Of a stretch of 64,000 nt of DNA, positions 19,790-55,659 are shown in pieces. The stretch comes from Octopus vulgaris (taxonomy: Eukaryota). The notes below the pieces were generated by a model. The model was given only the letters and a program-made list of their open reading frames with translations. It had not been told where the DNA came from and ran no database searches. The number at the start of each line of letters is the position of its first letter. The first letter of the stretch is position 1. The DNA lies in assembly GCA_951406725.2 (NCBI GenBank), contig OX597826.1, positions 17,670,001-17,734,000 on the forward strand, written 5' to 3'. A program made the translations under genes and the position numbers.

Positions 19790-19849
19790 TGCTACAAAAA
19801 GTATGTTTTGCACCTGTATTGGCTACATTTCATTTTGCTTGAACTTCAT

Positions 19850-21851: not shown

Positions 21852-21854
21852 TAT

Positions 21855-28300: not shown

Positions 28301-29161
28301 TATTTAAATATCTTTGCAAATCATTGTTAAAAATTAATTTCTTCTTACAACTAGTTTCAAAATATGACTCATCTTAATGCTGGTACTTAATCTCATCAAC
28401 ATGACCACCACTACCTGAGGCTATAAAAGGAGTCTCTAGACTAGACTTCACTATAGCAACTGTAAAACTAACAATGCAAACACCTGTCCTTAATCCTAAC
28501 CAACCAGACTCACGTGAAGGAGATCTTCTACAACAATCCTCAACACAACTTACACAAAAGGTGACAATACTGGAAGCAGCTGCTTCTGTGGTAACACAGG
28601 TTACATCACTTTTCCAATGTAAATAACAAAGCCATCAGATATTAAACTGATATATTTCACACTGTTGGTAAAATAAGTTGAACAATTAAAATCATTTCTA
28701 ATATAAAGACAAGGTGACATATTTCAGAAGAGAGAGAGAGAGAGAGTGAAATCACCACTACTAGTATTTTATTGGTACTTATTTTATCAACTCAGAGATA
28801 GCAAAAGCCAAAGTCAATTTTGACAAGATTTCATCTCAAAATGTAAGGAGAAATAATTAAATGCCACAAAATATTTAGTCCAACCTTATCATCTCTGTCC
28901 TCAATAATAATAATTGTTTACAATGTAGTCACAGAACAGAATTTTATCTTTTATTTCAGTCATTAGACTGTGACAATGATGGGGCACTGCTTGGAGGAAT
29001 TTTAGTTGAAATAATCGACCCCAGTATTTATTTTCTTTTTAAGCCTGGTACTTAGTCTATCAGTCATTTTCCCCAAACTGCTAAGTTATTGGAATGTTAA
29101 CACAACAACACCAGTTGTCAAGCAGTGGTGAGGAACAAACACAGTCACATATACATATATA

Positions 29162-29709
29162 TGTTGTGAATCTTGCAGGCATGAAGTAGATTTGATCCTA
29201 GATAGCCAAATATAAATTAACACTTCAACAGCACTTTTCTCACAGTAAAACAATAGTTTTTCTGTAACAGCAGTTTACATTTGTCAGATGCATTGCTAAG
29301 CAAAACAATGTCTTCGCCACTTGGCCCTTCTAACCTCTTATAAGCCACCAAAAGCTAGAATTAAAATAACAAGTACCACCAATGAAATCTACTGTTGTCA
29401 ACAATATGTCTATTCTTCTGGATAGTTATAAAAACAAGAACCCCTTGGCAAAAGTCAGTTGGTGAGTTAGTGAGAATGGAGTCTGGTTGACTGGCTGAAC
29501 AAAACACTGTCACAAAAGGACAACTATGGTAACTCACTAATGAAGCAGTTGTTTCATTACAACTTGAATCACTCTTCTTTCATCTTTACATAATGGCAAT
29601 CAACTAACAACAAACTATTACAATTGGTGATGACCCTTGACTTCAACGAAGAACCAATCCTTACAAATTGGCTACTCAACCGTTACACTAATTAACTTCT
29701 ACCATTCCA
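29162..29709 (+). repeat. 5' LTR (lacks about 200 bp present in the 3' LTR)
   Basis: TG...CA ends; colinear with 31293-32089. Confidence 0.8.
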
Positions 29710-31292
29710 AATTGGTGATCCTGACGTTGCACCATAACAGGCATCAATTACAAATTGGTGACCCCGTGTAAAAAGAATTGCTGCCTTCTAAAGCTACATT
29801 AGCTGCTATCTTTTCCTCACTACCTCAGCTTAAAAACAGAACAACAGTCTTCATATCAACAGTTGTTAGACCAAAGGAAAAATAATGACAACCTTTGTCT
29901 CCACCAAGATGCATCCTCCTTTGAACTGCAACAAAAAGCTCAATACTGCGATCCACTTCTCAACAATGCAACACTGCCAGTGAACAAGGAATTTGCCGAC
30001 CACGGAAGCCAATAAATGCATCATTTTGACAGCTACGTGCCCAGAAACTTATTGAATAACACTATGGAAGTCCACACGTGCAACATTTTCAACAGCCATA
30101 GACTTGAACTTTCTTTGTATGCACCTATTATTGCATTTCAAATGCTACTTTTTAGCTTTTCAGGACCAGAACACTTTCTAACCAAGTTTGTCATTTTAGC
30201 TTAATTAATTTTGTTGTTTGCATTGCACACGCATTGTTCACCTGTTCTTATTACATGGTTTCTGCTAAATGTCTGTAATTTCTTTCTTCGCATGCACCTT
30301 TCCTAGGCACCTGGCCTTGCACATGCATCTGCATACATGGCACATTGTTACACACACACACACACATGCTGTCACATCCATGCCCCACACATGCCTTTCT
30401 CGTTTGTTTTTCACGCTCCCTGTGCCCTTCTAGACACAACTAGTCTCTGTAAGACACTAGGTCGGTCATACATACATAGAGAAAGTTGTTTGTCCCTTAC
30501 AATGCACCAGCATGTCACACATTCGCTCCTGTACAATCAAGGCATATAATACCTCATGCACTGGCTGGTATATTCAGCACTGCCTTAATCTCTGGCATAT
30601 TCAATACCGTACATTGTATTTGTAATCAATGCACTAGCATTACTGCCTCAGCCTTGCAAGCTCTGTTGTACACATGCACCTCTATTATGCCTCTACTGCC
30701 TTGTTTTGCAACATATCTGTGTCAGCTCAACACTTTTCCTGACTCAATTTACGTGGATGTTCACATGCTCTACACTCATGTTTAGACATAATTTGCCCCT
30801 GTTAGGTCACGAAATTAACAGAGAAAATTATCTGTCTCATGCATCACTCCAGCATGCTTACACTGTTGTCCTTGCTAACCTCAGCTAGTACCCACAACAA
30901 CAGCACCAGACATATTTCACTTCCGAAAAACCTTCAAGGCATTTCATAAACTGCAACCCTGCAGGAGGATCTTCCATATGATGGACTGAGAATACACTCG
31001 CTCGCTCACCTGAGCTTATTTTACCGTGAATTTCAAAACATGCACCTGCCCTTGTGTATACGCCCTCATGCGCACTCACATGCTCATTTTCTTTTCTGCC
31101 TAGTCATGACTGCACTCATTTTGGCATGCAAAGCGACACTGCTATTCAAAATTATCCAAACAGAAAACTGTCCCATATACACTTCAATGATCCTCTCTCC
31201 TAATATGTGAAGGTTCTCCTCAAGCATAAATTTCTTTCTCTTCCTCAATTGTTCGTCCCCCCCCCCCCCGAAGCTCTCTGGTGGGGGAGTTA

Positions 31293-32089
31293 TGTTGTGA
31301 ATCTTGCAGGCATGAAGTAGATTCGATCCTAGATAGCCAAATTTAAATTAACATGTCAACAGCACTTTTCTCACAGTAAAACAATAGTTTTTCTGTCACA
31401 GCAGTTTACATTTGTCACATGCCTTAGCTAAGCAAAACAATGTCTTTGCCACTTGGCCCTTCTAACTTCTTATAAGCCACCAAAAGTTAGAATTAAAATA
31501 ACAAGTATCACCAACGAAATCTATTGTTGTCAACGATATGTCTATTCTTCTGGATAGTTATAAAAACAAGAAGCCCCAGGCAAAAGTCAGTTGGTGATTT
31601 AGTGAGAACAGAGTCAAGCTGACCAGCTGAACAAAACGCCATCGCAAAAGAGCACAAAAGGACAATTATGGTAACTCACCAATGAAGCACTTCTTTCGTC
31701 CCACACTCTCTCACTAGCTCACTTTATTTTCTCTTACAACATCACTATTTCTATCTGTAATTACTACTACACAATGATGAGATCACAAACACAAACTATA
31801 CAAGGAAAATCTATGACATCTATCTTTACTTTGCATGCTTTACGATTTTATCACCTGCCTGTTGAGGCAAGGTATTTTACAATGTAACGGTACAATAAAT
31901 ATTTTCTTCAATCACCGTTCTTTCATCTCCACATAATGGCAATTAATTAACAACAAACTATTACAACTGGTGATGACCCCGAAGTTCCATACTACTGTTT
32001 ACAAATTAATTTCAACCGTTACAAAAATAAACTTCTACTGTTACAAATTGGTGACTCAACCGTTACACTAATTAACTTTTACCGTTATA
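31293..32089 (+). repeat. 3' LTR
   Basis: Follows the PPT; contains AATAAA near 31894; ends accgttata (CA to TA) in a TA run. Confidence 0.8.
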
Positions 32090-32095
32090 TATATA

Positions 32096-33241
32096 TCAGG
32101 TTATGCCATTAGAAATGTCCAGATTTTAAATAAGGAAAGCAAGTGGTCAAACCTCACATTTTAATGGAACTTCATTGTCGATCTAGTTTCCTTGATTATC
32201 TATGACATCTTTCTATCTACTCGTAAGCTTTTTAATCTCATTAGTGAAAAACTCTTTCAGTTTTGAAGAGAAGAATTCTGAAAGGCCAGTTTCAACTTCC
32301 TCAGTTGTTTTGAGAGTTAATCCATCCAAATCATTCTGTAAACTACAGAAGAAATGGTAATCTGGGGAATAAGGTGGATGAGCAATTTTCTCCCAGCCAA
32401 GTTCTTTGATCTTTGCAGTGTGGGGTCTTGCACTGTCCTGATGAAACATCAGTCCCTTTTGGTTCACTACAGCAGGCATTTTTTTCTTCAAAGCAGTTTT
32501 CAAACACTCAAATTGCTGACAGTAGATTTGAGCACTTATCATTGCATTTGTTTGTAGCAACTGAAAGTGGATGATTCCTTTGCAATCCCACCGAACAGAG
32601 AAAACCTTCTTTGCATGGAATTCCCTTTTTGGTTGTGGTTGGGCCTTTTCCCCTTCACCAAGCAAATGTCTATTACACTTAAGATTTTGATAAAAAGCCC
32701 ATTTTTCCTCACCAGTCTGTCCAAAAAGAGTGAGATGAGTTAACAAGAATGAAAAGAGATGTTCACTTGGAATTTGCAGTTGGCTACAGACAAATCACAA
32801 GGCACCCGCTTTGGGACCTTTCCAAGCAAGTTCTACCAAAAGTAGCTTGTCATCAAACTCAACTAGATGTTCTGTCCGGGCCTCATCTTCAAGGCTGAAA
32901 TCTTCTCTTCTGAATTTTACAAATCTTCTTCTGCAAGTTCTTCCATTCAGGTACTCTTCTCCATAAGCTGAGTGAAAATTTCAAGTCACTTCAGCTACAG
33001 AGTTTCCTTTTTTAAACTCATAAAGTATTATGTACCTCAAATACTCCTTAGACACTTTCATGTTTGAAGAGCTATAATTAGTGAAATTTCAATTAGATTA
33101 TCCTGCAAAAACGAAATTTAATTAGTTTAAATATGTCCAAATACATATATTACTTGATGCCATTGAACATTCTAAAATACTGTTAAAGCATTTACAAATT
33201 GAAAATATAGAAGTCCAGATATTACTTATGGGATGACCTGA
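32096..33241 (-). mobile_element. mariner element, near full length, decayed
   Basis: Degenerate ~28-bp TIRs starting TCAGGT at both ends, TA flanks. Transposase remnants MKVSKEYLRY..., FHQDSARPH, HPPYSPDYHFF. Confidence 0.88.
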
Positions 33242-33245
33242 TATA

Positions 33246-34430
33246 TCAGGTTGAGTCAAAAGTAAGCAATGTTTTGAACCACGAAGAATTTGTACTGGAT
33301 TTTTGTAGAGTTTGGAATTTTTTTTAAACATTTTTTTGCAATTCTCTGATAATACAGACATGGGCTTACCCAAATGCATCAATAAATTGATATCTTTTTC
33401 ACTGTTGTTACAAACATCTGAAATGGAACTGTCAAAGTGCGATATTTGAGCAATTTTGCTAGTCAACTTCAAAAAAGGATGTAAAAAAGAAGCTGAAACT
33501 GCTCGCAAATGTTTGGTGAGGAAATGACCAGTGAGTGGTCAGCTCAAAAGTGGTTTAAACAATTTTGCAGAACTATGTGGTTGGAAAATAATAGGTTAAA
33601 CAATTTTGAAGCTTGTGAGTGCAGTGGACACCCATCTGTGATCTTTGATGGTCAATTAAAGACCATCATTGAGAAAGATCCATGTAAAACCACTCAAGAA
33701 CTGGCAAAAGAACTTCAAATTCGCCAGAAAACTACTTGCAACCATTTGTGTGTGATTGGAAAATCAAAAATGCTTGACAAATGGATACCATATGATTAGA
33801 ATGAAAATTAGAAAATGCGCGGATATGCTCATCGCTTCTTCTCCATAACCAGACTGGTCCATTTCTTGACTGTATTGTAACTTACGATGAAAAGTGGATT
33901 CTGTACAATAATAAAAAAAGAAATGTTCTTCGTAGTGGTTGGACCAAAATGAAGCACTGAAGACCTTCCCTAACTAAACCTGAGCTCTATAAAGAAAGTT
34001 CTGGTGACTGTTTGGTGGTGTATGCTGGACTCAGCCACTATAACTTCTTAAAACCTGGACAAACCATTACTGCAGAAACATATTGCCATGAAATTACCAA
34101 AATGAATGAAAAACTGCTACTCCTTTGTCCCAGACTAGTCAACAGAAGAGGGCCAATCATTCTTCATAACAATGCTCGACCACACATTTCACTATGAAGT
34201 TCTTTCCCACCCGCTTATTCCTCAGACCTTTCTTCTACCAACTACCACTTTTTCAAGCACCTTAATGGTTTCCTGTGAGAGAAGGATTTCAAAAATCAAA
34301 CTGATGCTGAAAATGCATTGAAAGAGTTCATCAACTCCAGATTTTTATGTTACTGGAATAAACAAACTTATAACGTGTTGGCAAAAATGTGTTGATTGTA
34401 ATGGTACTTACTTTGATGAATAAAATTCCT
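33246..34430 (+). mobile_element. mariner element, decayed, right end lost
   Basis: TIR TCAGGTTGAGTCAAAAGTAA. Motifs KWIPYD, VTYDEKWILYNN, HNNARPH, PAYSSDLSSTNYHFF. Confidence 0.88.
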
Positions 34431-34930
34431 GCCAGTGTTGCGTTAATGCACCCATGCCAGTGGCACATAAAAAACACCTAGCACACTCTGTTAAGTGGTT
34501 GGTGTTAGGAAGGGCATCCAACTGTAGAAGCCATACCACAACAGACAGATGGGGTCTGGACAGCTCCCTGCTAGCCAACTCCATTTCAAACCATCCAACA
34601 CATTCCAGCATGGAAAGCAGACATTAAATGATGATAACCTAATCAACTGTGAAAGTAATGTTAGAATAACACAGCTGCCAGAGTAAAAATAGGATGAAAA
34701 AAGTTTCAGGAGCTATCAACTTAATTGATAACAAAGGCCTTCCCTCTCCAAGTAATAGGCAAGCTATATAATACTAGCATATGATGGGCAATATTTCACC
34801 TCATAGTCCAGCCATGACTAAAAGTACTGAATGTGGAGGATGTGCAAAGACTAATGTCAGCATGCATGAATGAAAGGGCATAAATGTGCTGAGACAGAAA
34901 TTGGGCACTAGAGGTAACACAGTATGTCCA
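34430..34930 (+). mobile_element. RTE tail plus RTE ORF fragment
   Basis: ggcacataaaaaacacc / aggaagggcatcc tail to about 34635, then decayed RTE C-terminal sequence. Confidence 0.6.
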
Positions 34931-35189
34931 GAAATAACCACCATGATCTGAAGCATTTTACTTAACTACATCATCCATCTAAGATTGCCGTTGTTGTTGA
35001 GCCGACCATTCCGTCACATTAGAGTTATCAAAGATTACGTGTCCTTCCTTCCTTATTTAAGACGGTAGGGGTGTGATTTGAAAGAAACTGGCTGCTACTT
35101 CCAGCAAATAAGAGACCACTTGGAAGTTTCCTGCAAGGGTTTTGATGATACGTATTGGATTTAACATATTCAACTTTGGACACCGTGTA

Positions 35190-36440
35190 AATTAGCGAAA
35201 GAAAATTGGGCTTATGTTTCGATATGACTCTGTCTCAGGAACTTAAAAACCTTATTCAAAAGTACAGTGAAAATAATGGCTATGAAAAGATTGCAAAAAC
35301 TTTAGAATTGCCCCTAAGCACTGTTAAAACTGTAGTTAAGAAGTGGTTAGTGCACAAAACCACTGCTACCCTATCAAGATCTGGGAGACCAAGCAAACTT
35401 ACCAGAAGAGCAAAATCAAAACTGGTCCAGGAGGCCACCTCCAACCCTAGTGCAACACTGGAAGACTTGAAAGCTTCAGTTTCCAGTACTGGGACAGATG
35501 TCCATGCATCTACAATTTCCAGAGTATTGCACCGGTCTGGCCTGCAATGGAGGGTAGCTAGAAAAAAGCCCCTTCTGAAGCCTATGCACAAGCAAGCTAG
35601 GCTAAACTTTGCAAAAATTCATATTAATGATTCCATGACTATGTGGCGAAAGACTTAGTGGTCAGATGAGACCAAAGGCGAGTTATTTTGGAAAAATACA
35701 AAACGCTACGTTTGGTGGAAAAAGGCACTGCTCACCAACCTTGTTACACCATCCCCACTGTAAAGCACGGCGGTGGCTCGATCATGCTTTGGGGCTGTTT
35801 TTCAGCTGCAGGACCTGGAGAGTTGGTAACCATCCAAGGTATCATGGACAGTGTCAAGTACCAAGAAATATTGGAGGCAAATCTGCTAAAGCTCTGCGCT
35901 TGGGTCGCAATTTCAAGTTTCAACAAGATAACGACCCACAAGCATGTGTCAAAAAGCACTAAAGCTTGGTTTGCTAGCAAGAAAATCACAGTTTTTGAGA
36001 GGCCCAGCTAGTCTCCAGACCTTAATCCTATAGAAAATCTATGGCGAGATCTAAAGCTGGCAATGCACCGACGTTCCCCATCCACTCTGACACAGCTCAA
36101 GAAGTTCTGCCATGAAGAATGGCGAAAACTGTCAGATGACCACTGCAGCAAGCTCCTGGAACCCGGGGCGTCTGCAGGCTGTAATTGATGCAGCAGGATC
36201 ATCTACAAAGTAATAACTGAAGATATTCCAAAGGGGGTGTAGACTTGAAAAGACATTTTTCATTATCTTTGTTTAAGAACCAGTTAAAAAATTTTCAAAT
36301 GTATTTTATGTATTAAATAAAAGTGTGATAGATCTGCTTATTAAAACAAATCATTGGAGTTCAAAATATTAATTGTTCCTATCAAAACAAACAAAATACA
36401 TTCAGTTTCCGAGCGGGGCGTAGACTTTTGCAAGGCACTG
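35190..36440 (+). mobile_element. Tc1 (DD34E) transposon, IR/DR type, left end missing; transposase pseudogene about 35223-36213
   Basis: Paired-like HTH, GRPSK, WSDETK, TVKHGGGSIMLWGCF, FQQDNDP and SPDLNPIENLW. Right TIR ...cttttgcaaggcactg followed by TA. Inner and outer direct repeats at 36226-36246 and 36407-36427. Stops and frameshifts present. Confidence 0.93.
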
Positions 36441-36779
36441 TAACAGCTGAGCAGCACGCACAGGCCTTCGAGTCAAAACTAAAAATTGCCCCAAATTATT
36501 TACTTAATTTCTTCCTATTTAATTCGGTAAATGCCCACCAGAATATTAAGACATAAAAATTGATACACTGAAATATGTTTGTATTACGTGAACACGCCAA
36601 TGCTTGTGTTTGTCTACACATGAACAGAAATCTACACACTGCAGGTGAACACCGGAAAACACACCAATCTTCACACAGTCCTTCGTTATGATACAATACT
36701 AAATACACGTGTAAGCAGTACCAAAACACGGTACCTGTCACGAGACACCAAAATAAACTATTCACACTAGAACATTCCG

Positions 36780-37260
36780 TAATTGCACTCAGTTACAAAC
36801 AACAGAAGTTTTCTCGGCGAAGGTAAAGACTACGTCCACCCGGTGGCTAGGTTAGGGTTTACGATTAGGGTTTTTGTTACGCTGAAAAGAGGAGGTGTGC
36901 GTATTCTTTACCTCCGCCGTTTTCTCTTTAAAGAACATGAGAATGTTTCAATACAAGAAGTCTTTATGGTGAGTTTTTCTCAAAGTGCACACGACGTGTA
37001 ATGAAACAACAAAACTAAAAGGCGTCATTATAGTATTAGAAAAAAGATTAGTTACCGTTTTGAGCAGAGGTAATTTCGCCTTTACAACTAGATTCCATAC
37101 GGCAGGATCGCGATGTTGTGGTACGTCAGCCATTTTGACAACAACGAATCACGTGACAGTAATTAGAGTACCAAGTGCGGGGTGGGGGCTTAATTGCTTT
37201 ATTTTCTTCACTCGGTAATCGAGTTTGACTTACCATTTCATGTGTCCGCGACCAGTTAGA
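36780..37260 (-). promoter_or_regulatory. CpG-rich COMMD8 promoter/first-exon region
   Basis: Local CpG enrichment. E-box TCACGTGAC at 37149-37157. YY1-like GCCATTTT over the start codon (37129-37136). G-rich GC-box-like GGGGTGGGGG at 37179-37188. Confidence 0.6.
37056..37133 (-). CDS. COMMD8: COMM domain-containing protein 8, coding exon 1 (MADVPQHRDPAVWNLVVKAKLPLLKT)
   Basis: ATG in caaaATGGC context within a CpG-rich stretch. 78 nt ending in a phase-0 donor ACG|GTAACT, which joins in frame to the LLHG exon. The W-x-L pattern resembles the vertebrate COMMD8 N-terminus. Confidence 0.72.
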
Positions 37261-37265
37261 ACTAT

Positions 37266-37266
<1 letters not shown>

Positions 37267-37315
<49 letters not shown>
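37267..37315. repeat. (TA)n microsatellite upstream of the COMMD8 start
   Basis: About 24 TA units. Confidence 0.95.
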
Positions 37316-37316
<1 letters not shown>

Positions 37317-38166
37317 CCAGCACTTCCCACTTTATTTATCTATTTGTCCTGTGTTGTCCCATTCTGTATAAGATCGTCCTGATCATAATAAAGATTCCAC
37401 TTTATTTATTTTATCAATGCCGGTATTACTGTCACAGTCAATTATTATTTGCGAAGGATTGTGCTGTTATTTCTAGCTAGCTGTACGAGCGTATAGAGCA
37501 GATATTTCCAACCACTGTGTTACGTATGATTTACAGGTGCCACGAATCGGAAAATTCTAAGATATTGAAAAAACTCAAATGTTTTTAAAACACCACACTT
37601 TCGAAGCATGCGTATTTATTTTCGGCAAATTGCAATGCATACGCCCATCTGTTTGGGAACGATTTTATATTCATTTCTATAATAATAAAAAAAGGTTTAA
37701 AAGAGCTAATGATGCGATATAACACGTAGCACCTTATTCAGTGTGTCGTGGAGGAAAAGCTAAAATTGCTGATTCGAAAGTTGGTTTGTAGTTGTGAGTG
37801 TATGAGCATGTGTACAGGTAATGTAAATGGTTCTTTGTCTGGCCATGTGACAGAGAATATGCATGTACTGGGGGCGTTTCTTTGTATATGTTGCTGTTTT
37901 TTTTTTCTGCCAGTATATACACAGCATGTGCATATAGAAACAACGCACTCATAGCTATTAGTTTATGTATGAACTTAAAGCACCCTTAAGCCAAGAATAC
38001 TTACTCGTGAATATTTAGATATGTATTAAAGCATAGTTACGAACACCGTACACTCAATTATGATATAATATAAACATACACATATATAATGTACATATAT
38101 GCTCATATGGGACGATAAACGACCGGAAAGCCTTTAATTATGTTTACTCCATCAGGGTTAACCAGG

Positions 38167-38357
38167 GATGGCAGAAACGTTAGCACGCCGGGCAAAATGC
38201 TTAGTGATATTTCGTCAGTCTTTACGTTCTGAGTTCAAATTCCACCGCGGTCGACTTTGCCTTTCATCCTTTCGGGGTCGATAAATTAAGTACCAATTGC
38301 TTACTGGAGTCGATCTGATCGACTGGCCCCTACCTCAAAAATTTCGGGCCTTGTAGG
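38167..38357 (+). mobile_element. SINE family B between the two promoters
   Basis: Homologous to 3516-3650; B-box-like gagttcaaattcc. Confidence 0.8.
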
Positions 38358-38639
38358 CCACGAGCAAATCACTACACCGGTCCCAATAGTACTTACTGGG
38401 CACAATAGCACTTACTGGGACTAACAGCGGACTACAACGTACATAGGTCAGAATTGGGCCCCTGGGCAACTGCCGAGTATGCCCATGCCTTAAGACGGCT
38501 TTACGTGTAGTATTTAGTTGTGGCCACTCACATTCGAAGTTCAAATCTCGCTGAGATAACAAAAAAAAAAAACCCAACCAAACTGCATACAAGTCAATAA
38601 CTGAACATATTTCTATAATCAATATATCAACGACTTGAA

Positions 38640-39360
38640 TGAAATTATAGTAGAAGACTACACTTGAGTCTTCCGAACATCTCTCCTTCTTTCGTTCTCT
38701 CCAATATACACTTTAGATGATTGGCTAAACTCTATACCAATGAAATCACTTTACTATAGTTTTTCTTTTCCTGTCTTTCACACCGTTCCACGTTTGTTAT
38801 TGTTTTTTTTACTTTTATATTCTCACTCAATTTCCTCTTTTTCTGTCCTGCCGTCGCCGTTTCTATCTCTATTTTCTCACTCATTCATTGCTCTCATTAT
38901 TCCGCTTTTTGTTCCATTCTCTTCTTTCTGCCACTTATAGTTATCCTCCCCACCTTCCTCTCTCACAACTTTACTGCTTCACATCCCCCCCCCCCTACTT
39001 TAGCTGAGACACGTCATGACATGTAGAACAACAACAACACTTGGCAGCGGTACTTCCTACTGCTGTGTGTGAGGAGATCGATCGTAGCTACTAACGCTGC
39101 AAAGGCACTGTTGTGATTTCTGGGACTCTGGGATAAACAAAAGGAAAACTAGCCAAGTATTGAACTATAATCGGCACATGTTCCAGCAGTTCGTTGTTGG
39201 AAAACAGGGAAGTCGAATTGTCACGAGAAACTTTCTCCGTCGTCCTTCTTATATATATATATATATATATATAAAAGAGTGAAGAGTATGTGTTCCAGTT
39301 ATTGAAGTACGGCCGTGCTGGAGCTCTACACTAATTTATCTGTTCTTCGTTAACGAGCGT
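38640..39360 (+). promoter_or_regulatory. Probable promoter/5'UTR region of the ATP10 gene
   Basis: Non-repetitive, CpG-containing segment with a pyrimidine tract and a GTCATGAC palindrome (39013-39020), 1.2-1.9 kb upstream of the ATP10 exon. The TSS cannot be determined. Confidence 0.35.
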
Positions 39361-40532
39361 TTTGATATAAATGCTGAAAAGAAAATTACAACATAAATGA
39401 AAATGATGAATTTTTTTTAGACAATAAGAAATTTGTTTTCATCTTGGTGAACAGTCAATATAAATAGCAACAACATCATCGAAAAAAGTCCATTGAAAAC
39501 TATTTGAGCTGGCTAAGAAGAGGAAACTAAAGCAGAAGTAGGAAGCCAGGAAGTGGAATGTTACTTCACACAACTTTTTGTTGTTCAATGATGAAAATAT
39601 GCTGAAGTGTGCAGTTAGAGATTATGAATCTAATGAGCTGTGTGACATCTATTCTTTACACGAGCTAACTGCAGAAATGGATTGGAAGTGGACCACACCG
39701 GACAATGTATGCTGTCTGTTGATCCGTTCGAAATGAAGAACTGTAGAACCGCTAATTTCAAAGGAAGGATTTCCAAATGTTCGGAGTATCAGAGATGACA
39801 AGATGGTCAGGTTGGAAATTACCTAAATACTAAAGAGTAAAAAGAATACGCACGCTTTAAGTGCGAAAATCTTACACAAACTCGAAAACCTGTTTGTCTT
39901 TCATTGTTACCCACTTAACGCCATCCACTGCTACTTAGGTAATAAGTTTCGTGTTATTCGGATACTTGCTAAAAACATCTGCCAGTAGTGAAAGCTTAAG
40001 CCATCCAAGTGTATTTGTATTAATATTATCTTTGGAATCGTAAGAAATCTGTTGCCGAATAGTTAATTCCAGCACAAATACTAAATTTATCACTGTAAAT
40101 GCAATTAACTTGTTGATTTGATCCAATCTTCGATTACAGCAGGTGCTTTATATATATATATGGTTTTACACTCCACAATTATTTTTACATACCTTTCTCT
40201 TATTAATTATCAATAGTCATATCATTGTATAATATATTATAACTATTACTACTATAAATTAAAGAAAACGTTAAGGCTAATCCCATGTGTATTCCTTTTT
40301 TACTTGCGGATTAGTTTGTCAAGGTATTTATTACTTGTTAGAAGCAGCACGTTGACAGCCCTTTAAATACTTCATAATTATTATGGGTTTAATGTAATTA
40401 CTTTTCGAATATGATTATGCTTCACGTTTAATATATATTTAACGTATCAACAATGCTTGAGAATTTATTTAGTTGATTGTATAATATATAACTGTGCTCG
40501 TCATATATATATATATTACCAATATGTGTTTA

Positions 40533-40921
40533 ATGGACTTTATCTCGCGTCTTCTTCAAAGCTCATCTCCTCGACGCACCAGTCGCCGTATTGTCCCCAA
40601 TCACACTATAAACAAACGACTTTCCGATAAAGACCACCCAAATCATGCTTATAAAACCAACAGAATAAAAACTACCAAATATAGCATTTTAACGTTTATA
40701 CCTAAAAATCTTTTTGAACAGTTCCACCGTTTAGCTAACATTTTTTTCATACTTGTGGTGATTCTAAATTGGATTCCACAGGTACAGGCTTTCGGTAAAG
40801 AAATAGCCATGGTACCTGTGATATTTGTTCTTGGAGTAACTGCTGTTAAAGATATATTTGAAGATTTCCGGAGAGGATTATCAGACAGACAGATCAACCA
40901 GAAAACGTGTCGAGTTTTGCG
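40533..40921 (+). CDS. ATP10: P4-type phospholipid-transporting ATPase, ATP10 class, first conserved coding exon
   Basis: NRIKTTKYSILTFIPKNLFEQFHRLANIFF...NWIPQVQAFGKE...KDIFEDFRR is typical of ATP10A/B/D. Phase-2 donor CG|GTATGT at 40921/40922. The 5' end is uncertain: ATG at 40533, or a splice acceptor ...cttcttcaaag| before 40562. Confidence 0.9.
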
Positions 40922-42108
40922 GTATGTAATTAATTTGCTCTTTAATTTATTATATTTTTTAAAGTGTTTACAAGTGTCGTTGCATTATTACTGAAATTTT
41001 CTTTACTGTATCTCACCACTTCTGAAAGATTTTACCACATGCTAAAATAACAAATATTGGGTAAATTTCTTTCTCTATTGTCGACGCCGTGCCTTCACCG
41101 ACACCTTGGTCACCTGTGATAATTGGTTACCACTGGCTACCAGTGACTGTTTATCAGTGACAATTAGCTCGCTGCACAAGTCGGAATTCTGTAAATCCAG
41201 TGAGAAGTGTGTATGTGGTGGGACTTTCAGCCAACTTGAAAACTTAGAGGAGTACGAGAAATTGTATGAATGCCAAAAAGGAAAATAAATAAATAAATAA
41301 GGATTTTAAAATTAAAACAAATGAAGAAAATAATCAATAGCATTGCCTTATCACAGAACTATTTAGTTTCTTATGTTCCACATTCTTGGCAATGAATTAC
41401 CTACCTATGATAGGCAATGAATTATCTATGATACCTATGAATTTTCTTCTAAAGGGTAAAAACATTTTTTATGCTATATGATATTAAGAAACTGCAAATG
41501 TCACACTTTTTAACCGACCGATCTCTTTTGTATACTTTAATATATGCCTTATATAAATGAAATATTTAATTCTGGGATAAGGTATTCCAGACGTGTTATA
41601 TTTATATATCATTTTACCGGCAAATAGCTGATTCATCATCGTTTAATTAGGACAGCAGATTATTTATTTCACGTTAACTTTTCTGCCTTATTTCTCAGCT
41701 GAGTCAATATGACAAGCGCTCAAGTATCAAGTAGGCTCAAGCGTTCAACGTATCAAGTAGGCTCAAGCATGGCTGTGGTAAAATGTTCGCTTCATAACCT
41801 CGTGGTTCTAGGTTCGATGTGTCATCTATTATAGTTTATTGTTGGAATTTGGTAGACGCCTTTGTGTGTATATGAGTGTTTTTGCATCGTGCCCCTATAT
41901 TCCTTAACCTAGCAACTGGACAATTAACGATCAATAAAATAAATGCCTGACTGAAATAAGTAGCTGGATCTCGATGTGATCGATCATTGATTGGAGACGG
42001 ATTCGCAGTAGCCTTGAATCATTGGACGATAGTTCAATGAATGAAACCAGCAAAAACCAGAAATGAAATTTGTGATATCATGTACCGAATTTTCTTAGTA
42101 CAAACTCT

Positions 42109-42512
42109 GGATCTTTTCGGTTTGAACGGCAGTTTTTAACATAATTTCTAGGTAACTAAACAATTTTAAACTTCGTATACTGGTAGAATGTGTTTATAAA
42201 ACATCTTTTTCTCTTGGCTTTATTGAGAAAATTCTATGGTTTGTAAGATATTTGTTGTTGTTTTTTTCTGCAATTTCAACCAATCACTGACGTCTATTGA
42301 GGTAAAAAACATTTTGTGCCGTATGAATATGTCCCTCGTTTAAGAAACAGATTGGGTTTATTTACATTTGTGAAGAAAAAAAATATACCCTTCACCCCAC
42401 CCTAACCCTAAAACAGATTGAAATGCAATAGATCGATACTAGGGTCATAATTATGGGTGACAATTTCATATGACACCACTAGAAAAAACTGCCGTTCAAA
42501 CCGAAAAGATCC
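42109..42512. mobile_element. MITE, Merlin-like (GG...CC ends, 8-bp TSD)
   Basis: Perfect 29-bp TIR GGATCTTTTCGGTTTGAACGGCAGTTTTT; TSD CAAACTCT at 42101-42108 and 42513-42520. Confidence 0.9.
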
Positions 42513-42739
42513 CAAACTCTTATTCTGAACCTAGTCTATATACTTCTCTGCTTGTCAATTTAAAAGACTCTGAATTGTTATATTATTCAATCCATGTCAA
42601 ACACTGTTGTACGGAATATACACTGTACATGTCTAAATTTCATTAACCAGAAAATATCTTATGAAACTCTAAGAGCCATTTTCTTTCCTTGGAGTCAACC
42701 CCAATTCCTTGATTTGTAGCTTCGTTATATATAGATATT

Positions 42740-42950
42740 GGTTTCAAATTTTGGCATAAGGCCAGCAATTTTGAGGGACGAAGTCGATTGCAACAACCCG
42801 AGTACTCAACTGATACTTATTTTTATTGACCCCGAAAGAATGAAAGTTAATGCTGACCTTCATAGTATTTGAACTCATAACGCAAAGACAGGTGAAATGG
42901 TGCAAAATATTTTACCCAGCGTGCTAACGATTCTGCCAGTTTGCCACAAT
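42740..42950 (-). mobile_element. SINE family B
   Basis: Reverse complement of the family B head and body. Confidence 0.7.
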
Positions 42951-43027
42951 GTGTGCATATGTGTGTGTGTATACACACACACATTCCTGACGTATAGTTC
43001 AAAGGTCGTGTTTCACCACCTAAAGTA

Positions 43028-43260
43028 CGAAGGTGGTTAAGCATGACCTTCGAACTTTAGGTCTCACCGAGGAAATGACTAGAGACCGAGACCTTTGGAA
43101 GTATTCTGTGCGTGAGAAGACCCGGCAAGACAAGTGAGACCATAACCCGTGGCCTCTACCTGGGATGTAGCCAGTCCACTTATGCATACCTTTCCTTCTT
43201 GGAACACAAAACTCTACTTGTGAAGACTTGTTGGGGCAAGTGAAAATCAAAATCAAAATA
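43028..43260 (+). mobile_element. RTE 3' end, variant ending in (AAAATC)n
   Basis: End of RT C-terminus plus 3'UTR; second copy at 43898-44046. Confidence 0.7.
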
Positions 43261-43271
43261 TATACATGATA

Positions 43272-43482
43272 TACTCTTTTACTCTTTTACTTGTTTCAGT
43301 CATTTGACTGTGGCCATGCTGGAGCACCACCTTTAGTCGAGCAAATTGACCCCGGGACTTATTCTTTGTAAGCTCAGTACTTATTCTATCGGTCTCTTTT
43401 GCCGAACCACTAAGTGATGGAGACGTAAACACACCAGCATCGGTTGTTATGCAATGCTAGGGGTACAAACACAGACACACAA

Positions 43483-43515
<33 letters not shown>

Positions 43516-43720
43516 CATATATACTTATACTTTGATAGGTTTCGCCATTATTGACAGGCTTGACAGGCTTTCAGTTTCCGTCTACCAAATCCACTCACAA
43601 GGCATTGGTCGGCCCGGGGCTATAGCAGAAGACACTTGCCCAAGATGCTACGCAGTGGGACTGAACCCAGAACCATGTGGTTGGTTAGCAAGCTACTTAC
43701 CACACAGCCACTCCTGCGCC
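43272..43720 (-). mobile_element. SINE family A, full length
   Basis: Head GGCGCAGGAGTGGCTGTGTGG...GGTTCAGTCCC on the minus strand. Confidence 0.88.
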
Positions 43721-43758
43721 TATATGTATATATATATGACATATGTATATATATATGA

Positions 43759-43808
<50 letters not shown>

Positions 43809-43897
43809 ATTTATAATACAAAGTAAGATAGGGGTTATGGGTGTAACCCACTATGGGATAGTATTTATCCAATATACTGCTGGTGAAGTACCCAGAT

Positions 43898-44147
43898 GGA
43901 AGTTATGCTGTGCGTGAGAAGATCCGGCAGGACAAGTGGCCTCTACCTGGGATGTAGCCAGTCCACTTATGCATATCTTTCCTTCTTGGGACACAAAACT
44001 CTACTTGTGAAGACCTGTTGAAGCAAGTGAAAATCAAAATCAAAATATATACATGATATATGTATATATATATATGATATATGTATATATATATGATATA
44101 TATATATATATGACATATGTATATATATATGATATATATATATATGA
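43898..44147 (+). mobile_element. Short RTE 3' insertion with a 62-bp flanking duplication
   Basis: Direct repeats at 43836-43897 and 44148-44209. Confidence 0.7.
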
Positions 44148-44494
44148 TATGGGTGTAACCCACTATGGGATATCAATTATCCAATATACTGTTGGTAAAG
44201 TACCCAGATTCTTAATACATAAATGTTTTTAATTGCAATGCAATTAACTCACTTATTGTATTAAATGGGTGAAGGTAAAGAAATACTTTTACTGTAAATT
44301 TATAATACAAATAAGAAAATGGAGAAACAAGTTTAGTTTGTTCATCAACTTTCGGATATTAGAACGTTGGATTATTTATTCATTCAATAAAATGAGAACC
44401 TCAATATTATACATATATATCATATAATTCAATACATATAAGATAATAATACAAGTTATAAAAATCAATACAAATTATTGAAATCATTAAAATC

Positions 44495-44611
44495 ACTTCT
44501 TACAGCTGTTTCAGCCTATGGCTAAAAGTAGTTATTTTTATTGCCTATATTTGTCAACATAATGATGTTGCAGGCATTTAATATGGTACTTATATATATA
44601 ACCATAGGCCC

Positions 44612-44612
<1 letters not shown>
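44495..44612 (-). ncRNA. Truncated hammerhead-ribozyme-like motif (Penelope pLTR type)
   Basis: Minus strand GGCCTATGGTTA...TAGCCATAGGCT-GAAAC-AGCT-GTA; the CUGAUGA box is not intact. Confidence 0.4.
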
Positions 44613-44616
<4 letters not shown>

Positions 44617-44688
<72 letters not shown>

Positions 44689-44765
44689 GTATATTGGAGC
44701 ATATAAACACATCTATGCTTATGACCAGATAAATAATAGTCAATTATTAATAATAATAATATTAA

Positions 44766-44803
<38 letters not shown>

Positions 44804-44982
44804 ATTGTTATTATTACTATTATGTATATCAATAATAACAATATTATAACATGTCTATGCTTATGACCAGATGAATAACAATCAACTATTAATAATAATG
44901 CTGTTATTATCAATATATATGTGTGTGTGTGTATATATATATGTATATTATATAGATGATATGTGTATGACATATATACGTG

Positions 44983-45013
<31 letters not shown>

Positions 45014-45030
45014 GTACATGACATGTATGT
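44617..45030. repeat. (TA)n, (TAA/TTA)n and (TG)n low-complexity block
   Basis: Directly visible. Confidence 0.95.
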
Positions 45031-45162
45031 GTGTGTGTACACTGACATTACACATCTAGCGTATTATGCTAGCTTCATTTCTTTCAAGCCTACGCATGTC
45101 TTCAGCAGTAATGGCCCATGTTTCACTGCCATGTAGCATGGCGGTTTGCACACATAATTCAT

Positions 45163-47504
45163 TCAGATTGCCAGAAGGGATGCTATGAAACAAGTACATC
45201 TAGCCAAGGGAGAAGCAGAAAAGAAGTTTGCCTATTTTCAGCGATGTGAGGACCAAAGAACTGAAGTGTTTTGGATTGCAAGACAGTGTGCGAGAGAGAA
45301 TCGTGATGTCATAGGAGAGAAATGTGTCTGTATGGATGATAGTGTACTTGCATGTAGTGATTCTGCAAAGAAAGAGGCTTGGAAATGACATTATGAAAGA
45401 CCACTGAATGTTATGAACGAATGGGAGAAAGAGAGGCTGCCAAATGTAGACCCAACTGAGAGACCAGCTATCCAAATCGACAGTAGCCTGGTAGATAAAG
45501 CAATTAAAGATATGAAGACAGAAATCACTGTTGAGATGCTTAAAATATCTGGCAGTGTGGGTTATGGTCTAGTCACCCATATTGTAAATCAGGTGGTTCA
45601 CAAAGGAGTTATACCCAATGACTGGTGTAGCAGCACTATAGTCAAAAGGTAAAAAGAGGTGCCTTAGGCTGAAATAATTACAGAGATATCAAATTACTGG
45701 ATCAGGTGATGACAGTTATGGAGAGAGTCAAAGCCCAACTGATTAGGGAGAGAGTTAGCTTAGATGTGATGGAGTTTGATTTTGCTTCAGGTAGAAGGAC
45801 CACTAATGCTATATTTCTTGGAAGGCAGCCGCAGGAGAAATGCATAGCCGAAAATAACCTCTGTACTTGACCTTTGTTGACTTGGAAAAAGCCTTTTTCA
45901 GGGTCTCCAATTCCCTTATCTGGTGGTCAATGTGGAAACTAGGGAAAGATGAGTGGTTGGTGAGAGCTGTACAAGCTATGTATGGGGATGCTGCCAGTAA
46001 AGTGAGGGTTGGCATTGAGTACAGCAAAGAATTCAGGGTACAAGTAGGAGTTCACCAAGGATCAGTCCTCAGCCACCTCTTGTTCATTATAGTCCTCCAG
46101 GCAATAGCTGAGAAATTCAAAACAGGCTGCCCCTGGGAGCTCCTCTATGCTAATGACCTTACTCTTATAGCTGAATCACTATCTGAAAAAGAGAAGTTCC
46201 AGGTATGGAAGCAAGGTCAAGAATAAAAGGGCCTTAGAGTTAACCTAGTAAAAACCAAATACTTAGTGAGTAGAAAGGCAGACAAATCACAAATCCCTTC
46301 AGCTAGATGGCCCTGCTCAATCTGTAGTAAAAGTGTAGGTAGAAACTCCATAAGATGCACCTGGTGTAAGCTTTGGACAAAATAAAAGGTGCAGCAATAT
46401 CAGAGGAAGGTTAACAAAGAAAGTAGCTTTTGTATGTGGAAGACGCACTGGTACAATAAATGCTGAAAATGTGCAGAAAATAGACTCCATCAGCTGCCAA
46501 TAGGGTAAGGTAGAAGTGGTAGACAGCTTCCGTTATCTAGGTGACCAAGTTAGTAGTGGAGGTGGTTGCTCCAAGAGCGTTGCTGCGAGAACAAGATTAG
46601 GCTGGGCAAAGTTCAGAGAGCTCCTACCACTGCTGGCAACAAAGGGCCTCTCTCAGAGTGAAAGGCAGATTGTTTGATGTTTGTGTGCAAACAGCTATGC
46701 TGTATGGTAGTGAAACATGGGCTATGACAGCTAAAGACATGCTTTGGCTTGAAAGAAATGAAGCCAGTATGCTTTGCTGGACGTACAATGTCAGTGTGCA
46801 TGTTCAACAGAGTGTAAGCATCTTGAGAGAAAAGTTAGGCATAAGAAACATCAGATGTGGTGTGCAAGAGAGATAACTTTGCTGGTATGGTCATGTGATG
46901 CATGTGGATGAGGACAGCTGTGTAAAGAAGTGCTGATCTCTAACTGTGGAGGGAAACTGTGGTAGAGGTAGACCCAGGAAGATGTGGGATGAGGTGGTGA
47001 AGCATGATCCTTGAACTTTGAGCCTCACAGAGGCAATGACTAGTGATCAAGATCTTTGGTGATGTGCTGTGCTTGAGAGAACCAATCAAGCCAAGGGAAA
47101 TCATAGCTGTGGTAACTGGCACCGTGCTGGTGGCACATAAAGAACACCTTTTGAGCGTTGGGCCTCACGGAGGCAAAGTGGCTGAGTTCCTTTTGACTTT
47201 TGGCATTATGTTGTGCTTGAGAAGAAGACGCATCAAGCCAAGCAAAATTGCAGTCATGGCTGATACTGGTGTCATGCAAATTGCATCTGTGCCAGTAGAA
47301 TGTAAAAGCACCCTGGTGTCATGCAAATAGCACCCCTGCTAGTGGCATGAAAAAGCACCCATTACACTCTCAAGAGTGGTTGGTGGTAGGAAAGGCATCC
47401 ATGCCAAATCAGACTGGAGTCTGGTGTAGCCTTCCAGCTTGCCAGCCCAGTCAGACCGTCCAACCCATGCCAGCATGGACAATGGACGTTAAATGATGAT
47501 GATG
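45163..47504 (+). mobile_element. RTE-clade LINE, 5'-truncated and decayed
   Basis: FVDLEKAF, VGVHQGSVLSHLLF, ELLYAND, FRYLGD, AMLYGSETW, RGRPRK; 3'UTR and (GAT)n tail. Confidence 0.93.
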
Positions 47505-49680
47505 AAAGTGCAATAGACAGGGGAAAGCAACTGGTTAGAAAGCTAATTAATTTGCAGTAATTATGTGAATACTGTAGTATTTTGGAGCAAAATGCTGTCA
47601 TAGTATATTGTAAAAGATTGGGAGTAAAATATTCTTTTGTTTGTTTCTCTGAACCATTTTCTGAACTGCTAAGTTGTAGTAATTCCAGGTGTATCAGTTT
47701 TCTCAGACTGGTTTGTCAGCATCTTTGTTAAGTGGTTAGTGTTATGAAGGTCATGCAGCCATAAAAATCATTACGTCAAAAAGGGAATGAATAAGCAAGA
47801 CGTGGTCCTCCATTTCCTGTAGAAGGCAATGACTTGGACTATCAACTGACTCAGAGCTTTTACTCAGACACTAACTCCAAATATGACTTGACTCAGCAGG
47901 GCAAGTGGACATAAAATCTTAGTAATGAACGAGGCTCTTCTACTCTGAGAGCTTTTCTTTTTTTTTTTACTTCCTCCTGAGATGTTTATTAGTATTCATA
48001 GGTTTAAACTTCTGCTTTTGATTATTCTCTCTCAGTCATTTGTCTTGGGTCTTTTTGTGAATGTGGACAAACATGCTCCAGTTTATGATAGCCATGACTG
48101 TATTTCATTAAAAAAAAAGGGGGGGGGGTGAACCAGTAACTTTCATATTTCATGTCACAGCTTAGTTATTATGGTTGAATGTTTCTTTCTGTTAATTGCT
48201 TGTTATTTTGTGATTGTATTTTGTTAAATTTCTTTTGGATTGGTATTGTTATTTGTACAGTTAACATAAAACCTAACGTTTTGCTTTTGCTCTACCAGGT
48301 TTTTTTATTGCTTACTTCCTTGCTGTTGAGTTTTGCAGGATATTGATCATAGCCCGTGTTATCTCTCTACCTTTACTAGATGTTTTGGTTTATCTTTTTT
48401 ACGACATTTTCTATTGTTATGCTTTTTTATCTAAACCATTTTTCTCCAATGCAATTAGCTCCTAGTGTATACTTCATTGCATATAAAGGTTGTTTTCCGT
48501 GTGTCTTTTCAGTTTATCCTTCCTTGTTTCTGAATATTTTTCTAGAAATTGTTTAATTGTAACATACTCTATATTTTGGCAGAACTTTTTCCTTCTTGTG
48601 CACACAATGTTATACTATATCAACTACAGTTTGGGATACAAACAAGTAAATCATTAGCTTTCCTTTCTCAGCTGTTACAATCCATTTTTCTTCCTATATA
48701 TTATATTGAATCTATAATTTATAAATGGGATGACCAGTGTATTTGTGCTGATTATTTGTTTTTTAAAATTAAACTGAAATTTTTAGTGTTTTATTCTGAC
48801 TTTGCAGTTGTACTTTTTATAATTGTTCCCTTCATTGATTTTATCTCCTCCTCCATATGGACAATTCTGATCTAATTCTATGACTTTACTGTCTAGATCT
48901 AACTTGAGGGTAGTTTTGACATAGTTGTCAAAATTCCTGTTACTGTTGAATTTATTCAGTTTCTAGCAGGTTCTAAATTCTCACTGTATTTTATAGTTTG
49001 ACCCTTAGGATTGATAGAGCAGACTTATGATCCAGTCGTAATCATCATATATTTTATTCAGACAGTGCTTATCCTTTCAGGTTGGGAGGGTGTGGTTTGT
49101 GAGAGATTTAGCTGCTATTTCTAGCAAATTCCACTGCCAAAATTGGAGCACTTTTGTTAAATTACCCTTGTTATAGTAGCCATTAGTAGTTTGATTGCAT
49201 AGATTTGTTAATGGAATCAAAGTTAGACAGAAAATGAGGATAAAGAAAATTCTTACAGGGATATGGCTGGTTTTTATTCTTTCCTTATCATGCAGTGTTA
49301 ACTTTTTCATTTTGGGATGATGTGCTTATAATATTGGGGGCTGCTTAGTTTGTGTATAGTTTTGTTTATCCACAAGTATGGTGTGATGTAGGAGGCTTTT
49401 ATCCTCAGTCCACACCATATCTAGATTTTTGTTTGTTTTTTTTTTTTTTTCTCATTTTGCTCCCTTAAAATTCTAGCTTTGTTTACAAATAGCTGTTTTA
49501 TAGATTCATAAAAACATCTCCAAAGCCATTTCTGTTTCTATAGTAAGATATTAATTTCCAGATAATCTACCAACTTTGTCGGAGATTATAAATGACAGGG
49601 TTTTGTATTGTTGGTAAAAAGGTTATTAGGCTATCAGTTTCAAGTTCTTGGTGTTTTTATTTTGAGGAGAATAATATTAA

Positions 49681-55650: not shown

Positions 55651-55659
55651 CGTTACAAC

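What the first reader, a model, noticed from the sequence alone, without database searches (positions are those of the whole stretch)
37056..40921. COMMD8 and an ATP10 flippase sit head to head, as COMMD8-ATP10D do in human
Seen: the COMMD8 start (37133, minus) and the first ATP10 coding exon (about 40533, plus) diverge across about 3.4 kb, although both genes have introns of 23-31 kb. Recalled knowledge: human COMMD8 and ATP10D are adjacent and divergent on 4p12, and coleoid genomes are known for breaking ancestral microsynteny. Inference: this may be an ancient bilaterian gene pair held together by a shared regulatory region. Both products act in membrane trafficking (the Commander/CCC endosomal recycling complex and a P4-ATPase lipid flippase).
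Basis: partly seen in the sequence, partly recalled or inferred. Interest (0 to 1): 0.72.

Follow-up and report, generated by a model that had tools for sequence, protein, structure and literature searches.

The report
Ancient back-to-back COMMD8–ATP10 gene pair
In an octopus genome, the genes for the sorting protein COMMD8 and the lipid flippase ATP10 start back to back less than 2 kb apart, and the same two genes appear to be neighbours in snails, mussels and vertebrates, so this is likely one of the several hundred ancient animal gene pairs, probably kept together by a shared promoter region rather than by a shared job.

Summary
The minus-strand exon 37056-37133 is COMMD8 exon 1: spliced contigs of two runs join it to exon 2 across a 31.1-kb intron. 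The plus-strand exon to 40922 starts a complete ATP10 gene. Transcript-like contigs reach 37149 and 38822, so the 5' ends lie at most about 1.7 kb apart, not 3.4 kb. Both sit inside the only CpG-undepleted domain in 264 kb. Accession numbers are consecutive or nearly so in 7 of 13 testable species (octopus, two snails, four mussels). Published tables list the genes as neighbours from shark to human. Scorpions and other arthropods lack the pair. In three other animal groups ATP10 faces a different housekeeping gene (UQCRQ, Rab GDI, Nup205). That favours a promoter-architecture constraint over a trafficking partnership. Orientation outside octopus, amphioxus or annelid intermediates, and co-expression were not testable. 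This is most likely a real bilaterian-age head-to-head pair of a well-described class. Interest is modest.

The parts
37056..37133 (-). COMMD8 coding exon 1 (26 aa, ATG 37133, GT donor)
   Evidence: spliced to exon 2 in contigs of X8 and X11
37134..37149 (-). COMMD8 5' UTR as far as contigs reach
   Evidence: X8 record covers 37056-37149; X11 covers 37056-37125
5941..37055 (-). COMMD8 intron 1 (31,115 bp, rich in transposon remnants, CpG o/e 0.23 over 5941-36250)
5779..5940 (-). COMMD8 exon 2 (54 aa)
   Evidence: Pfam COMMD8_HN E 2e-8
4421..4576 (-). COMMD8 exon 3 (52 aa); exons 4 and 5 lie about 13.3 and 28.7 kb before the window start
   Evidence: best PDB hit is COMMD8, E 0.018
37150..38821 (.). 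Gap between the furthest 5' contig ends (1.67 kb): candidate shared promoter region, CpG o/e 1.01
37149..37156 (.). Palindromic E-box TCACGTGA at the furthest COMMD8 5' end (a single motif; weak evidence)
   Evidence: 3 matches in the window, 0.35 expected from shuffles; 4 in 264 kb
37343..37404 (.). Short interspersed repeat remnant inside the gap
   Evidence: 42 other matches listed in G000
38169..38350 (.). Very high-copy, SINE-like repeat inside the gap (ends approximate; 'SINE' is my label, not tested)
   Evidence: summed contig depth of 55,000-340,000 and many loose ends in this bin
38822..40523 (+). ATP10 5' leader (about 1.7 kb, 29 upstream ATGs), continuous with the first coding exon
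   Evidence: single contigs 38903-40922 (X1) and 38960-40922 (X11); tiled pieces in X5 and X8; no splice joint listed; unique in G000 at 38780-39240
40524..40922 (+). ATP10 first coding stretch (ATG 40524 or 40533; GT donor after 40922)
40923..64000 (+). ATP10 intron 1 (continues to about 78,300 in window numbering)
36251..42250 (.). CpG-undepleted domain covering both first exons (o/e 0.95 against 0.23-0.32 in the flanking introns)

Best explanation
COMMD8 and the single ATP10 flippase gene of this octopus genome start back to back within about 1.7 kb inside one CpG-rich domain, and they are likely an ancestral bilaterian gene pair kept together because their two promoters probably share one unmethylated, open region. 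Shown: both gene structures, the divergent layout, the short gap and the CpG domain. Inferred from accession numbering: adjacency in two gastropod lineages and in mussels, hence in the common ancestor of cephalopods, snails and bivalves. From published tables: adjacency from shark to human. Inferred: both go back to one bilaterian pair; CpG retention marks germline hypomethylation; breaks or large insertions in the gap would damage one promoter or both, while the methylated introns on either side were free to swell to 31-37 kb. The constraint is probably on promoter architecture (ATP10 facing a housekeeping gene), not on a joint biochemical task. The products likely do what their relatives do: COMMD8 as a Commander/CCC ring subunit, ATP10 as a CDC50-dependent flippase predicted to move glucosylceramide and/or phosphatidylcholine.
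For: Splice join and 5' extents. Only 3 of 132 two-kb bins in 264 kb have CpG o/e of 0.85 or more; they are contiguous at 36001-42000 and the next highest is 0.69. No host gene was found among 132 filtered flank frames, most from the 71 kb 3' of COMMD8; only transposon domains hit. Accessions, COMMD8 against ATP10: O. vulgaris CAI9731629/630 vs 631 (positive control); Bulinus KAH9489278 vs 279 on the same 726,659-bp scaffold; Pomacea C0Q70_06173 vs 06174; Mytilus galloprovincialis XP_076117824 vs 822/823, M. californianus XP_052078162 vs 160/161, M. trossulus XP_063413280 vs 278, M. edulis XP_071125455 vs 450-452. Vertebrates: adjacent rows in human, chicken, turtle and elephant shark (PMC8851819 supplement 4); order GABRB1-COMMD8-ATP10D in cattle and salmon tables. 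Rough model with assumed inputs: 0.9-7.1 chance head-to-head pairs against about 325 ancestral head-to-head pairs in human (593 pairs and 54.8% from PMC3514665). Octopus ATP10 falls in the animal ATP10 clade (FastTree 0.99) and keeps the TM4 Pro-4 glutamine.
Against: Only two major lineages are positive, molluscs and vertebrates. Both Centruroides species have the genes on different scaffolds. 0 of 79 metagenome loci had a COMMD8 hit; most are short, and many are plant ALA-type rather than animal ATP10. In a non-protostome animal group ATP10 faces UQCRQ at about 360 bp (7 loci). The sea star COMMD8 is listed in a block with SREBF2, SQSTM1, TTC29, OTUD4 and ABCE1, with no ATP10 listed (file cut when stored). 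Crassostrea angulata accessions are 633 apart on the same chromosome (inconclusive; O. sinensis is 56 apart). Orientation outside octopus was not seen. The gap tolerates two repeat insertions, and the human gap is about 20 kb (recalled), which argues against one core bidirectional promoter. No expression or chromatin data were available.
Confidence: 0.6

Rival explanations
1. Ancestral but passive: the pair is old, and survives only because a short gap flanked by two essential promoters is a small target for breakpoints. There is no shared regulation.
For: Repeats have inserted in the gap. The pair is lost in scorpions and other arthropods. The human gap is about 20 kb (recalled). Flanking vertebrate neighbours are not kept in octopus: no ligand-gated-channel, Fz or NIPA domain near C13:17.7 Mb.
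Against: The gap stayed at about 1.7 kb while the neighbouring introns grew to 31-37 kb, and one CpG domain spans both starts. Conserved head-to-head pairs are reported to be more co-expressed than matched controls (PMC3514665).
Confidence: 0.2
2. Convergence: molluscs and vertebrates brought the two genes together independently, helped by both lying on one ancestral chromosome and by ATP10 readily acquiring head-to-head housekeeping partners.
For: Different partners in other groups: UQCRQ, Rab GDI, Nup205. No invertebrate deuterostome or annelid shown to have the pair. The human block is labelled 'Vertebrata novel' in PMC8851819, though that survey needs three genes or more. A NIPA gene and ligand-gated channel genes lie on the same octopus contig 22-62 Mb away, consistent with shared chromosomal ancestry.
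Against: Chance adjacency on a shared linkage group is about 2/(N-1), 0.1-0.7% for assumed N of 1500-300, and chance pairs are far fewer than ancestral ones.
Confidence: 0.12
3. Functional coupling: the pair is kept because Commander/CCC recycles ATP10, or ATP10 shapes the endosomal membranes that Commander uses, so their doses must match.
For: Both act on membranes of the endocytic route; ATP10B is described as late endo-/lysosomal (search listing). One alternative partner, Rab GDI, is also a trafficking gene.
Against: 0 papers hold 'Commander complex', 'flippase', 'endosomal recycling' and 'ATP10' together. A Commander structure and interactome paper has 0 occurrences of ATP10 or flippase in its main text. 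COMMD8 is one of ten ring subunits. The other partners, UQCRQ and Nup205, are unrelated to trafficking.
Confidence: 0.08

Closest known systems
Conserved ancestral microsyntenic pairs (CAMPs), head-to-head class (Irimia et al. 2012, PMC3514665; abstract and Results parts 1-2 of 3 read)
   Same: Two unrelated genes, adjacent in distant phyla, 5'-5' oriented (54.8% of human CAMPs), short gap, no developmental regulator.
   Different: Their rule needs four major lineages; only molluscs and vertebrates are shown here. Their pair list (Supplemental Table S2) could not be read, so the pair may already be in it.
Vertebrate GABRB1-COMMD8-ATP10D-CORIN block (blocks 3522 and 8055 in PMC8851819 supplement 4, searched by term; cattle, chicken, salmon and human tables in PMC7764440, PMC10976558, PMC8102513, PMC13680535, passages)
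   Same: COMMD8 next to an ATP10 gene.
   Different: Labelled 'Vertebrata novel' there. Octopus keeps only the two-gene core. The octopus gene is the single pro-orthologue of ATP10A/B/D (inference), not ATP10D in particular. The gap is 1.7 kb at most against about 20 kb in human (recalled).
Metazoan microsyntenies retained in coleoids (Schmidbaur et al. 2022, PMC9023564; abstract and Results part 1 of 4 read, 7 supplements searched by term with no hit)
   Same: Ancestral linkage surviving the coleoid reorganisation; 275 such blocks reported in squid.
   Different: Those are blocks of three or more genes; a two-gene pair falls below their definition.
Classical bidirectional promoter, e.g. HSPD1-HSPE1 (as described in PMC3514665)
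   Same: Divergent starts in one CpG-rich region.
   Different: The gap may exceed the 1-kb convention, holds repeat insertions, and the products are not known partners.

Membership tests
COMMD8 orthologue | COMMD8 helical N-terminal domain plus C-terminal COMM domain | tested here: met
   PF22838 on exon 2; PF07258 and PF22838 on P0002; best PDB hit COMMD8; relatives named COMMD8
COMMD8 orthologue | Exon 37056-37133 is part of the transcript; single copy | tested here: met
   splice join in 2 of 2 RNA-like runs laid; all 4 genome matches at this locus
ATP10 (class V P4-ATPase) | Full P4-ATPase domain set; groups with vertebrate ATP10, apart from other P4-ATPases | tested here: met
   PF16209, PF13246, PF00702, PF16212 and VA/VB/VD names among the top 120 of 420 hits; animal ATP10 clade support 0.99 (thin outgroup: plant ALA-type loci, L061 and a 48-aa paralogue). 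PDB alone gave ATP8B1 first, with no ATP10 chain among its 20 hits.
ATP10 (class V P4-ATPase) | TM4 Pro-4 glutamine needed for glucosylceramide transport | tested here: met
   FQAVIP in P0006; motif defined in bioRxiv 10.1101/373712 (passages)
ATP10 (class V P4-ATPase) | Measured lipid-flipping activity | not testable with these tools
   prediction from sequence only
CAMP (Irimia 2012) | [quoted passage not shown] | tested here: met
   none between them in octopus; consecutive locus tags in Pomacea and consecutive accessions in Bulinus
CAMP (Irimia 2012) | Linked in at least four major metazoan lineages | tested here: inconclusive
   two positive (molluscs, vertebrates); arthropods negative; no ATP10 record obtained for amphioxus, nemerteans, chiton, corals or sponge
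CAMP (Irimia 2012) | Conserved 5'-5' orientation | not testable with these tools
   shown only in octopus; human orientation recalled; accession numbers carry no strand
CAMP (Irimia 2012) | Co-expression above matched neighbour pairs | not testable with these tools
   only assembled contigs were available; they cannot rank expression
Classical bidirectional promoter | Start sites less than 1 kb apart | tested here: inconclusive
   contig ends 1.67 kb apart, an upper bound; contigs do not show starts
Classical bidirectional promoter | One CpG island covering both starts | tested here: met
Genomic regulatory block | A developmental regulator with a bystander gene | tested here: not met
   neither gene is a developmental transcription factor or signalling gene
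Microsyntenic block of three or more genes (Schmidbaur 2022, Robert 2022) | A third shared orthologue within five genes | tested here: not met
   no Neur_chan_LBD, Fz, NIPA or zf-NF-X1 match near C13:17.7 Mb; tested only for these vertebrate neighbours

The most novel reading that the evidence does not exclude
ATP10 has an obligate head-to-head 'promoter slot': across animals it borrows a housekeeping promoter from a divergent partner that can be swapped (COMMD8 in the bilaterian ancestor, molluscs and vertebrates; UQCRQ, Rab GDI or Nup205 elsewhere). The COMMD8 pairing, labelled a vertebrate novelty in one survey, would then be older than 550 million years and reflect a true Commander-flippase dosage link.
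Probability: 0.12. Interest if true: 0.6.

Novelty: new member of a known kind. Interest (0 to 1): 0.32.

Why it matters
It adds a concrete two-gene linkage that likely predates the mollusc-vertebrate split and survived the coleoid reshuffle and genome expansion. Surveys that need three genes miss it and file the human block as vertebrate-new. The compact 1.7-kb octopus gap is a tractable place to test whether such pairs are held by shared regulation or by small breakpoint targets. Partner swapping at ATP10 is a natural experiment on that question. As a class it is well known (about 600 pairs), so the gain is incremental.

Tried and rejected
(1) Metagenome scan for animal contigs carrying both genes: 79 loci, 0 COMMD8 hits by HMM or tblastn. 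The control finds octopus exons 2-4 but not exon 1 with non-cephalopod queries, so loci with short upstream flanks are uninformative, among them the bivalve-like L023 (2.6 kb). (2) An exon-1 scorer meant to read orientation in L023 failed its positive control (true exon ranked 4th of 52) and was dropped. (3) Third accession look-up: none of 10 COMMD8 clusters matched a species with a listed ATP10. Haliotis had no species in common. (4) Sepia pharaonis: different scaffolds, but its ATP10 record is only the C-terminal half, so uninformative. (5) Literature: COMMD8+ATP10D gave 5 papers, 4 opened, all gene lists; COMMD8+synteny 0; long names of both 0; ATP10D/GABRB1/CORIN/paralogon 2; COMMD8+bidirectional 18, none on this pair by title or abstract. 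Supplements: Irimia 2012 unavailable; no hit in PMC6292497, PMC13508932, PMC9023564 (some may use gene ids I could not search). PMC13652810 passages do not use 'head-to-head'. (6) No run was on record as RNA; the runs are treated as RNA because they end at splice donors, join exons 31 kb apart and leave flanking intron bins empty. (7) Atlas searches did not give the taxon of L051. (8) Earlier scan notes: nothing relevant. (9) The careful COMMD8 tree timed out; the quick tree was used only to choose look-ups. No fold or complex prediction was run, as no binding claim is made.
Full report
1. Setting. The window is G000:C13:17,670,001-17,734,000 in a 2.8-Gb genome. Proteins identical to its exons are labelled Octopus vulgaris by their source. 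Coordinates below 1 or above 64,000 continue the window numbering into neighbouring stretches.

2. COMMD8. The minus-strand frame 37133-37056 gives 26 codons and ends on a GT donor. It is the N-terminus of the 191-aa P0002. Exon 2 (5779-5940) matches Pfam COMMD8_HN at E 2e-8. Exon 3 (4421-4576) has COMMD8 as its only PDB match (E 0.018). Exons 4 and 5 lie at about -13,300 and -28,700. In both RNA-like runs laid (X8, X11) a contig ends at 37056, and its 30 loose letters equal window 5911-5940. This shows the 31,115-bp splice directly. The gene is single-copy in G000.

3. ATP10. The plus-strand frame 40524/40533-40922 matches PhoLip_ATPase_N. It begins P0006 (1229 aa), whose pieces run in order to about 155,450, with exon 2 at about 78,300. 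Named top hits are ATPase VA/VB/VD or unnamed P4-ATPases (120 listed of 420). A tree puts the octopus gene with molluscan, arthropod and vertebrate ATP10 (support 0.99, thin outgroup). TM4 keeps the Pro-4 glutamine that ATP10D needs for glucosylceramide transport; substrate is therefore predicted, not shown. The genome search gave one other P4 match at 50% identity.

4. The gap. In one search, X1 and X11 each have one contig from 38903 or 38960 to the donor at 40922. X5 and X8 tile most of that stretch. The furthest 5' pieces start at 38822-38903 in the four runs, and no splice joint is listed inside the leader. COMMD8 contigs reach 37149. Contigs cannot fix true starts. CpG o/e is 0.95 over 36251-42250 against 0.23 and 0.32 in the two first introns. 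The three 2-kb bins there are the only ones of 132 at 0.85 or above. By established knowledge of invertebrate gene-body methylation, this marks one unmethylated promoter domain (inference). The gap holds two repeat remnants and an E-box at 37149 (weak). On the 3' side of COMMD8, 71 kb yielded only transposon domains among the filtered frames scanned (139 frames in all, 132 from the flanks, of 149 flank candidates).

5. Other species. No tool gives coordinates for other animal genomes, so I used accession order and record length. The control works: the O. vulgaris accessions are consecutive. Of 13 species with both genes, 7 are within 5 numbers and on a record of equal length (O. vulgaris, Bulinus truncatus, Pomacea canaliculata, four Mytilus species). 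Three share a record but not nearby numbers (O. sinensis, O. bimaculoides, Crassostrea angulata); this is inconclusive, as RefSeq numbering need not follow position. Three are on different scaffolds (Sepia pharaonis, only a C-terminal ATP10 fragment; two Centruroides scorpions). The molluscan positives are not independent of each other; they date the pair to the ancestor of cephalopods, snails and bivalves. In vertebrates the two genes are adjacent rows in human, chicken, turtle and elephant shark (PMC8851819 supplement 4, cut when stored). They follow each other in cattle, chicken, salmon and human gene tables. Divergent orientation and a gap of about 20 kb in human are recalled, not checked.

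6. Results against. No COMMD8 in 79 metagenome loci. Upstream frames of 10 loci were scanned (105 of 208 frames from 11 loci). A neighbour was found in six, and L061 was dropped because it falls outside the animal ATP10 clade. Of the other five, four face an opposite-strand housekeeping gene: UQCRQ in L051 and L057 (7 loci carry it; ATG to ATG about 360 bp in L051), Rab GDI in insect-like L026 (4 loci; about 750 bp), Nup205 in arthropod-like L029. L024 has an AASDH-like gene on the same strand. L051 and L057 lie outside protostomes; their taxon was not established. If they are cnidarians the pair is a bilaterian gain; if deuterostomes, they are a loss or a point for convergence. The sea star COMMD8 is listed in another block without ATP10. 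The vertebrate neighbours tested are not nearby in octopus.

7. Chance. With assumed linkage groups of 300-1500 genes, 0.9-7.1 human pairs would be head to head in both lineages by chance, against about 325 ancestral head-to-head pairs (using PMC3514665 figures). The inputs are rough, but ancestry is much the likelier reading (my estimate about 0.85 after the negative lineages).

8. Mechanism. Best reading (0.6): an ancestral pair held by a shared unmethylated promoter domain. Rivals: ancestral but passive (0.2), convergence (0.12), Commander-flippase coupling (0.08; no support). Partner swapping points to promoter architecture rather than a joint task.

9. Comparison and verdict. It works like a head-to-head conserved ancestral microsyntenic pair (PMC3514665). 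Formal membership, four lineages, is not shown. That paper's pair list could not be read, so the pair may already be recorded. Searches found no paper on its invertebrate conservation. One survey labels the human block 'Vertebrata novel' under a three-gene rule. Retention of ancestral linkage in coleoids is common.

Noticed in passing
window 38822-40523: The ATP10 leader is about 1.7 kb, apparently unspliced, with 29 upstream ATGs and four uORFs of 20 codons or more. It may impose translational control, or hide a rarer spliced form.
   Followed up: partly
P0006 residues 351-358 (TM4; beyond the window end): The usual PISL motif (recalled; seen in the one fish row) reads PLPL or PLAL in all molluscan ATP10 rows and PLSL in the arthropod, annelid and lizard rows. 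This changes the hydrophobic-gate region (role recalled).
   Followed up: partly
L051 4065-4352 (-), L057 2488-2889 (-); also L052-L056: UQCRQ sits head to head with ATP10 at about 360 bp in a non-protostome animal group.
   Followed up: partly
L026 923-2269 (-); L025, L027, L040; L029 1566-7721 (-): Rab GDI (insect-like contigs) and Nup205 (arthropod-like contig) lie head to head with ATP10.
   Followed up: partly
window 37343-37876: One run (X1) has a 1231-nt contig whose last 534 nt match the gap with one difference, and it lists no contig on COMMD8 exon 1. Possible upstream transcript, alternative first exon, or a join through the repeat; unexplained.
   Followed up: no
window 36815-36919: Small repeat with 26-nt inverted ends in COMMD8 intron 1, many copies in DNA-like runs; MITE-like (my label).
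   Followed up: no
window 35191-36011: Tc1/mariner-like transposase remnant about 1 kb inside COMMD8 intron 1, at the edge of the CpG domain (frames; family recalled, not scanned).
   Followed up: no
G000:C13:70.5 Mb, 39.5-42.3 Mb, 79.5-80.1 Mb: A NIPA gene and several ligand-gated channel genes are on the same contig as the pair, echoing the vertebrate GABR-ATP10-NIPA regions at chromosome scale only.
   Followed up: partly
P0024/P0054 and P0031/P0039: Freshwater mussels Sinanodonta and Potamilus each have two ATP10 copies with nearby locus tags, duplicated before their split.
   Followed up: no
P0325 (second O. vulgaris model): An annotated 165-aa COMMD8 isoform shifts frame after exon 3 and loses most of the COMM domain; alternative acceptor or annotation artefact.
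   Followed up: no
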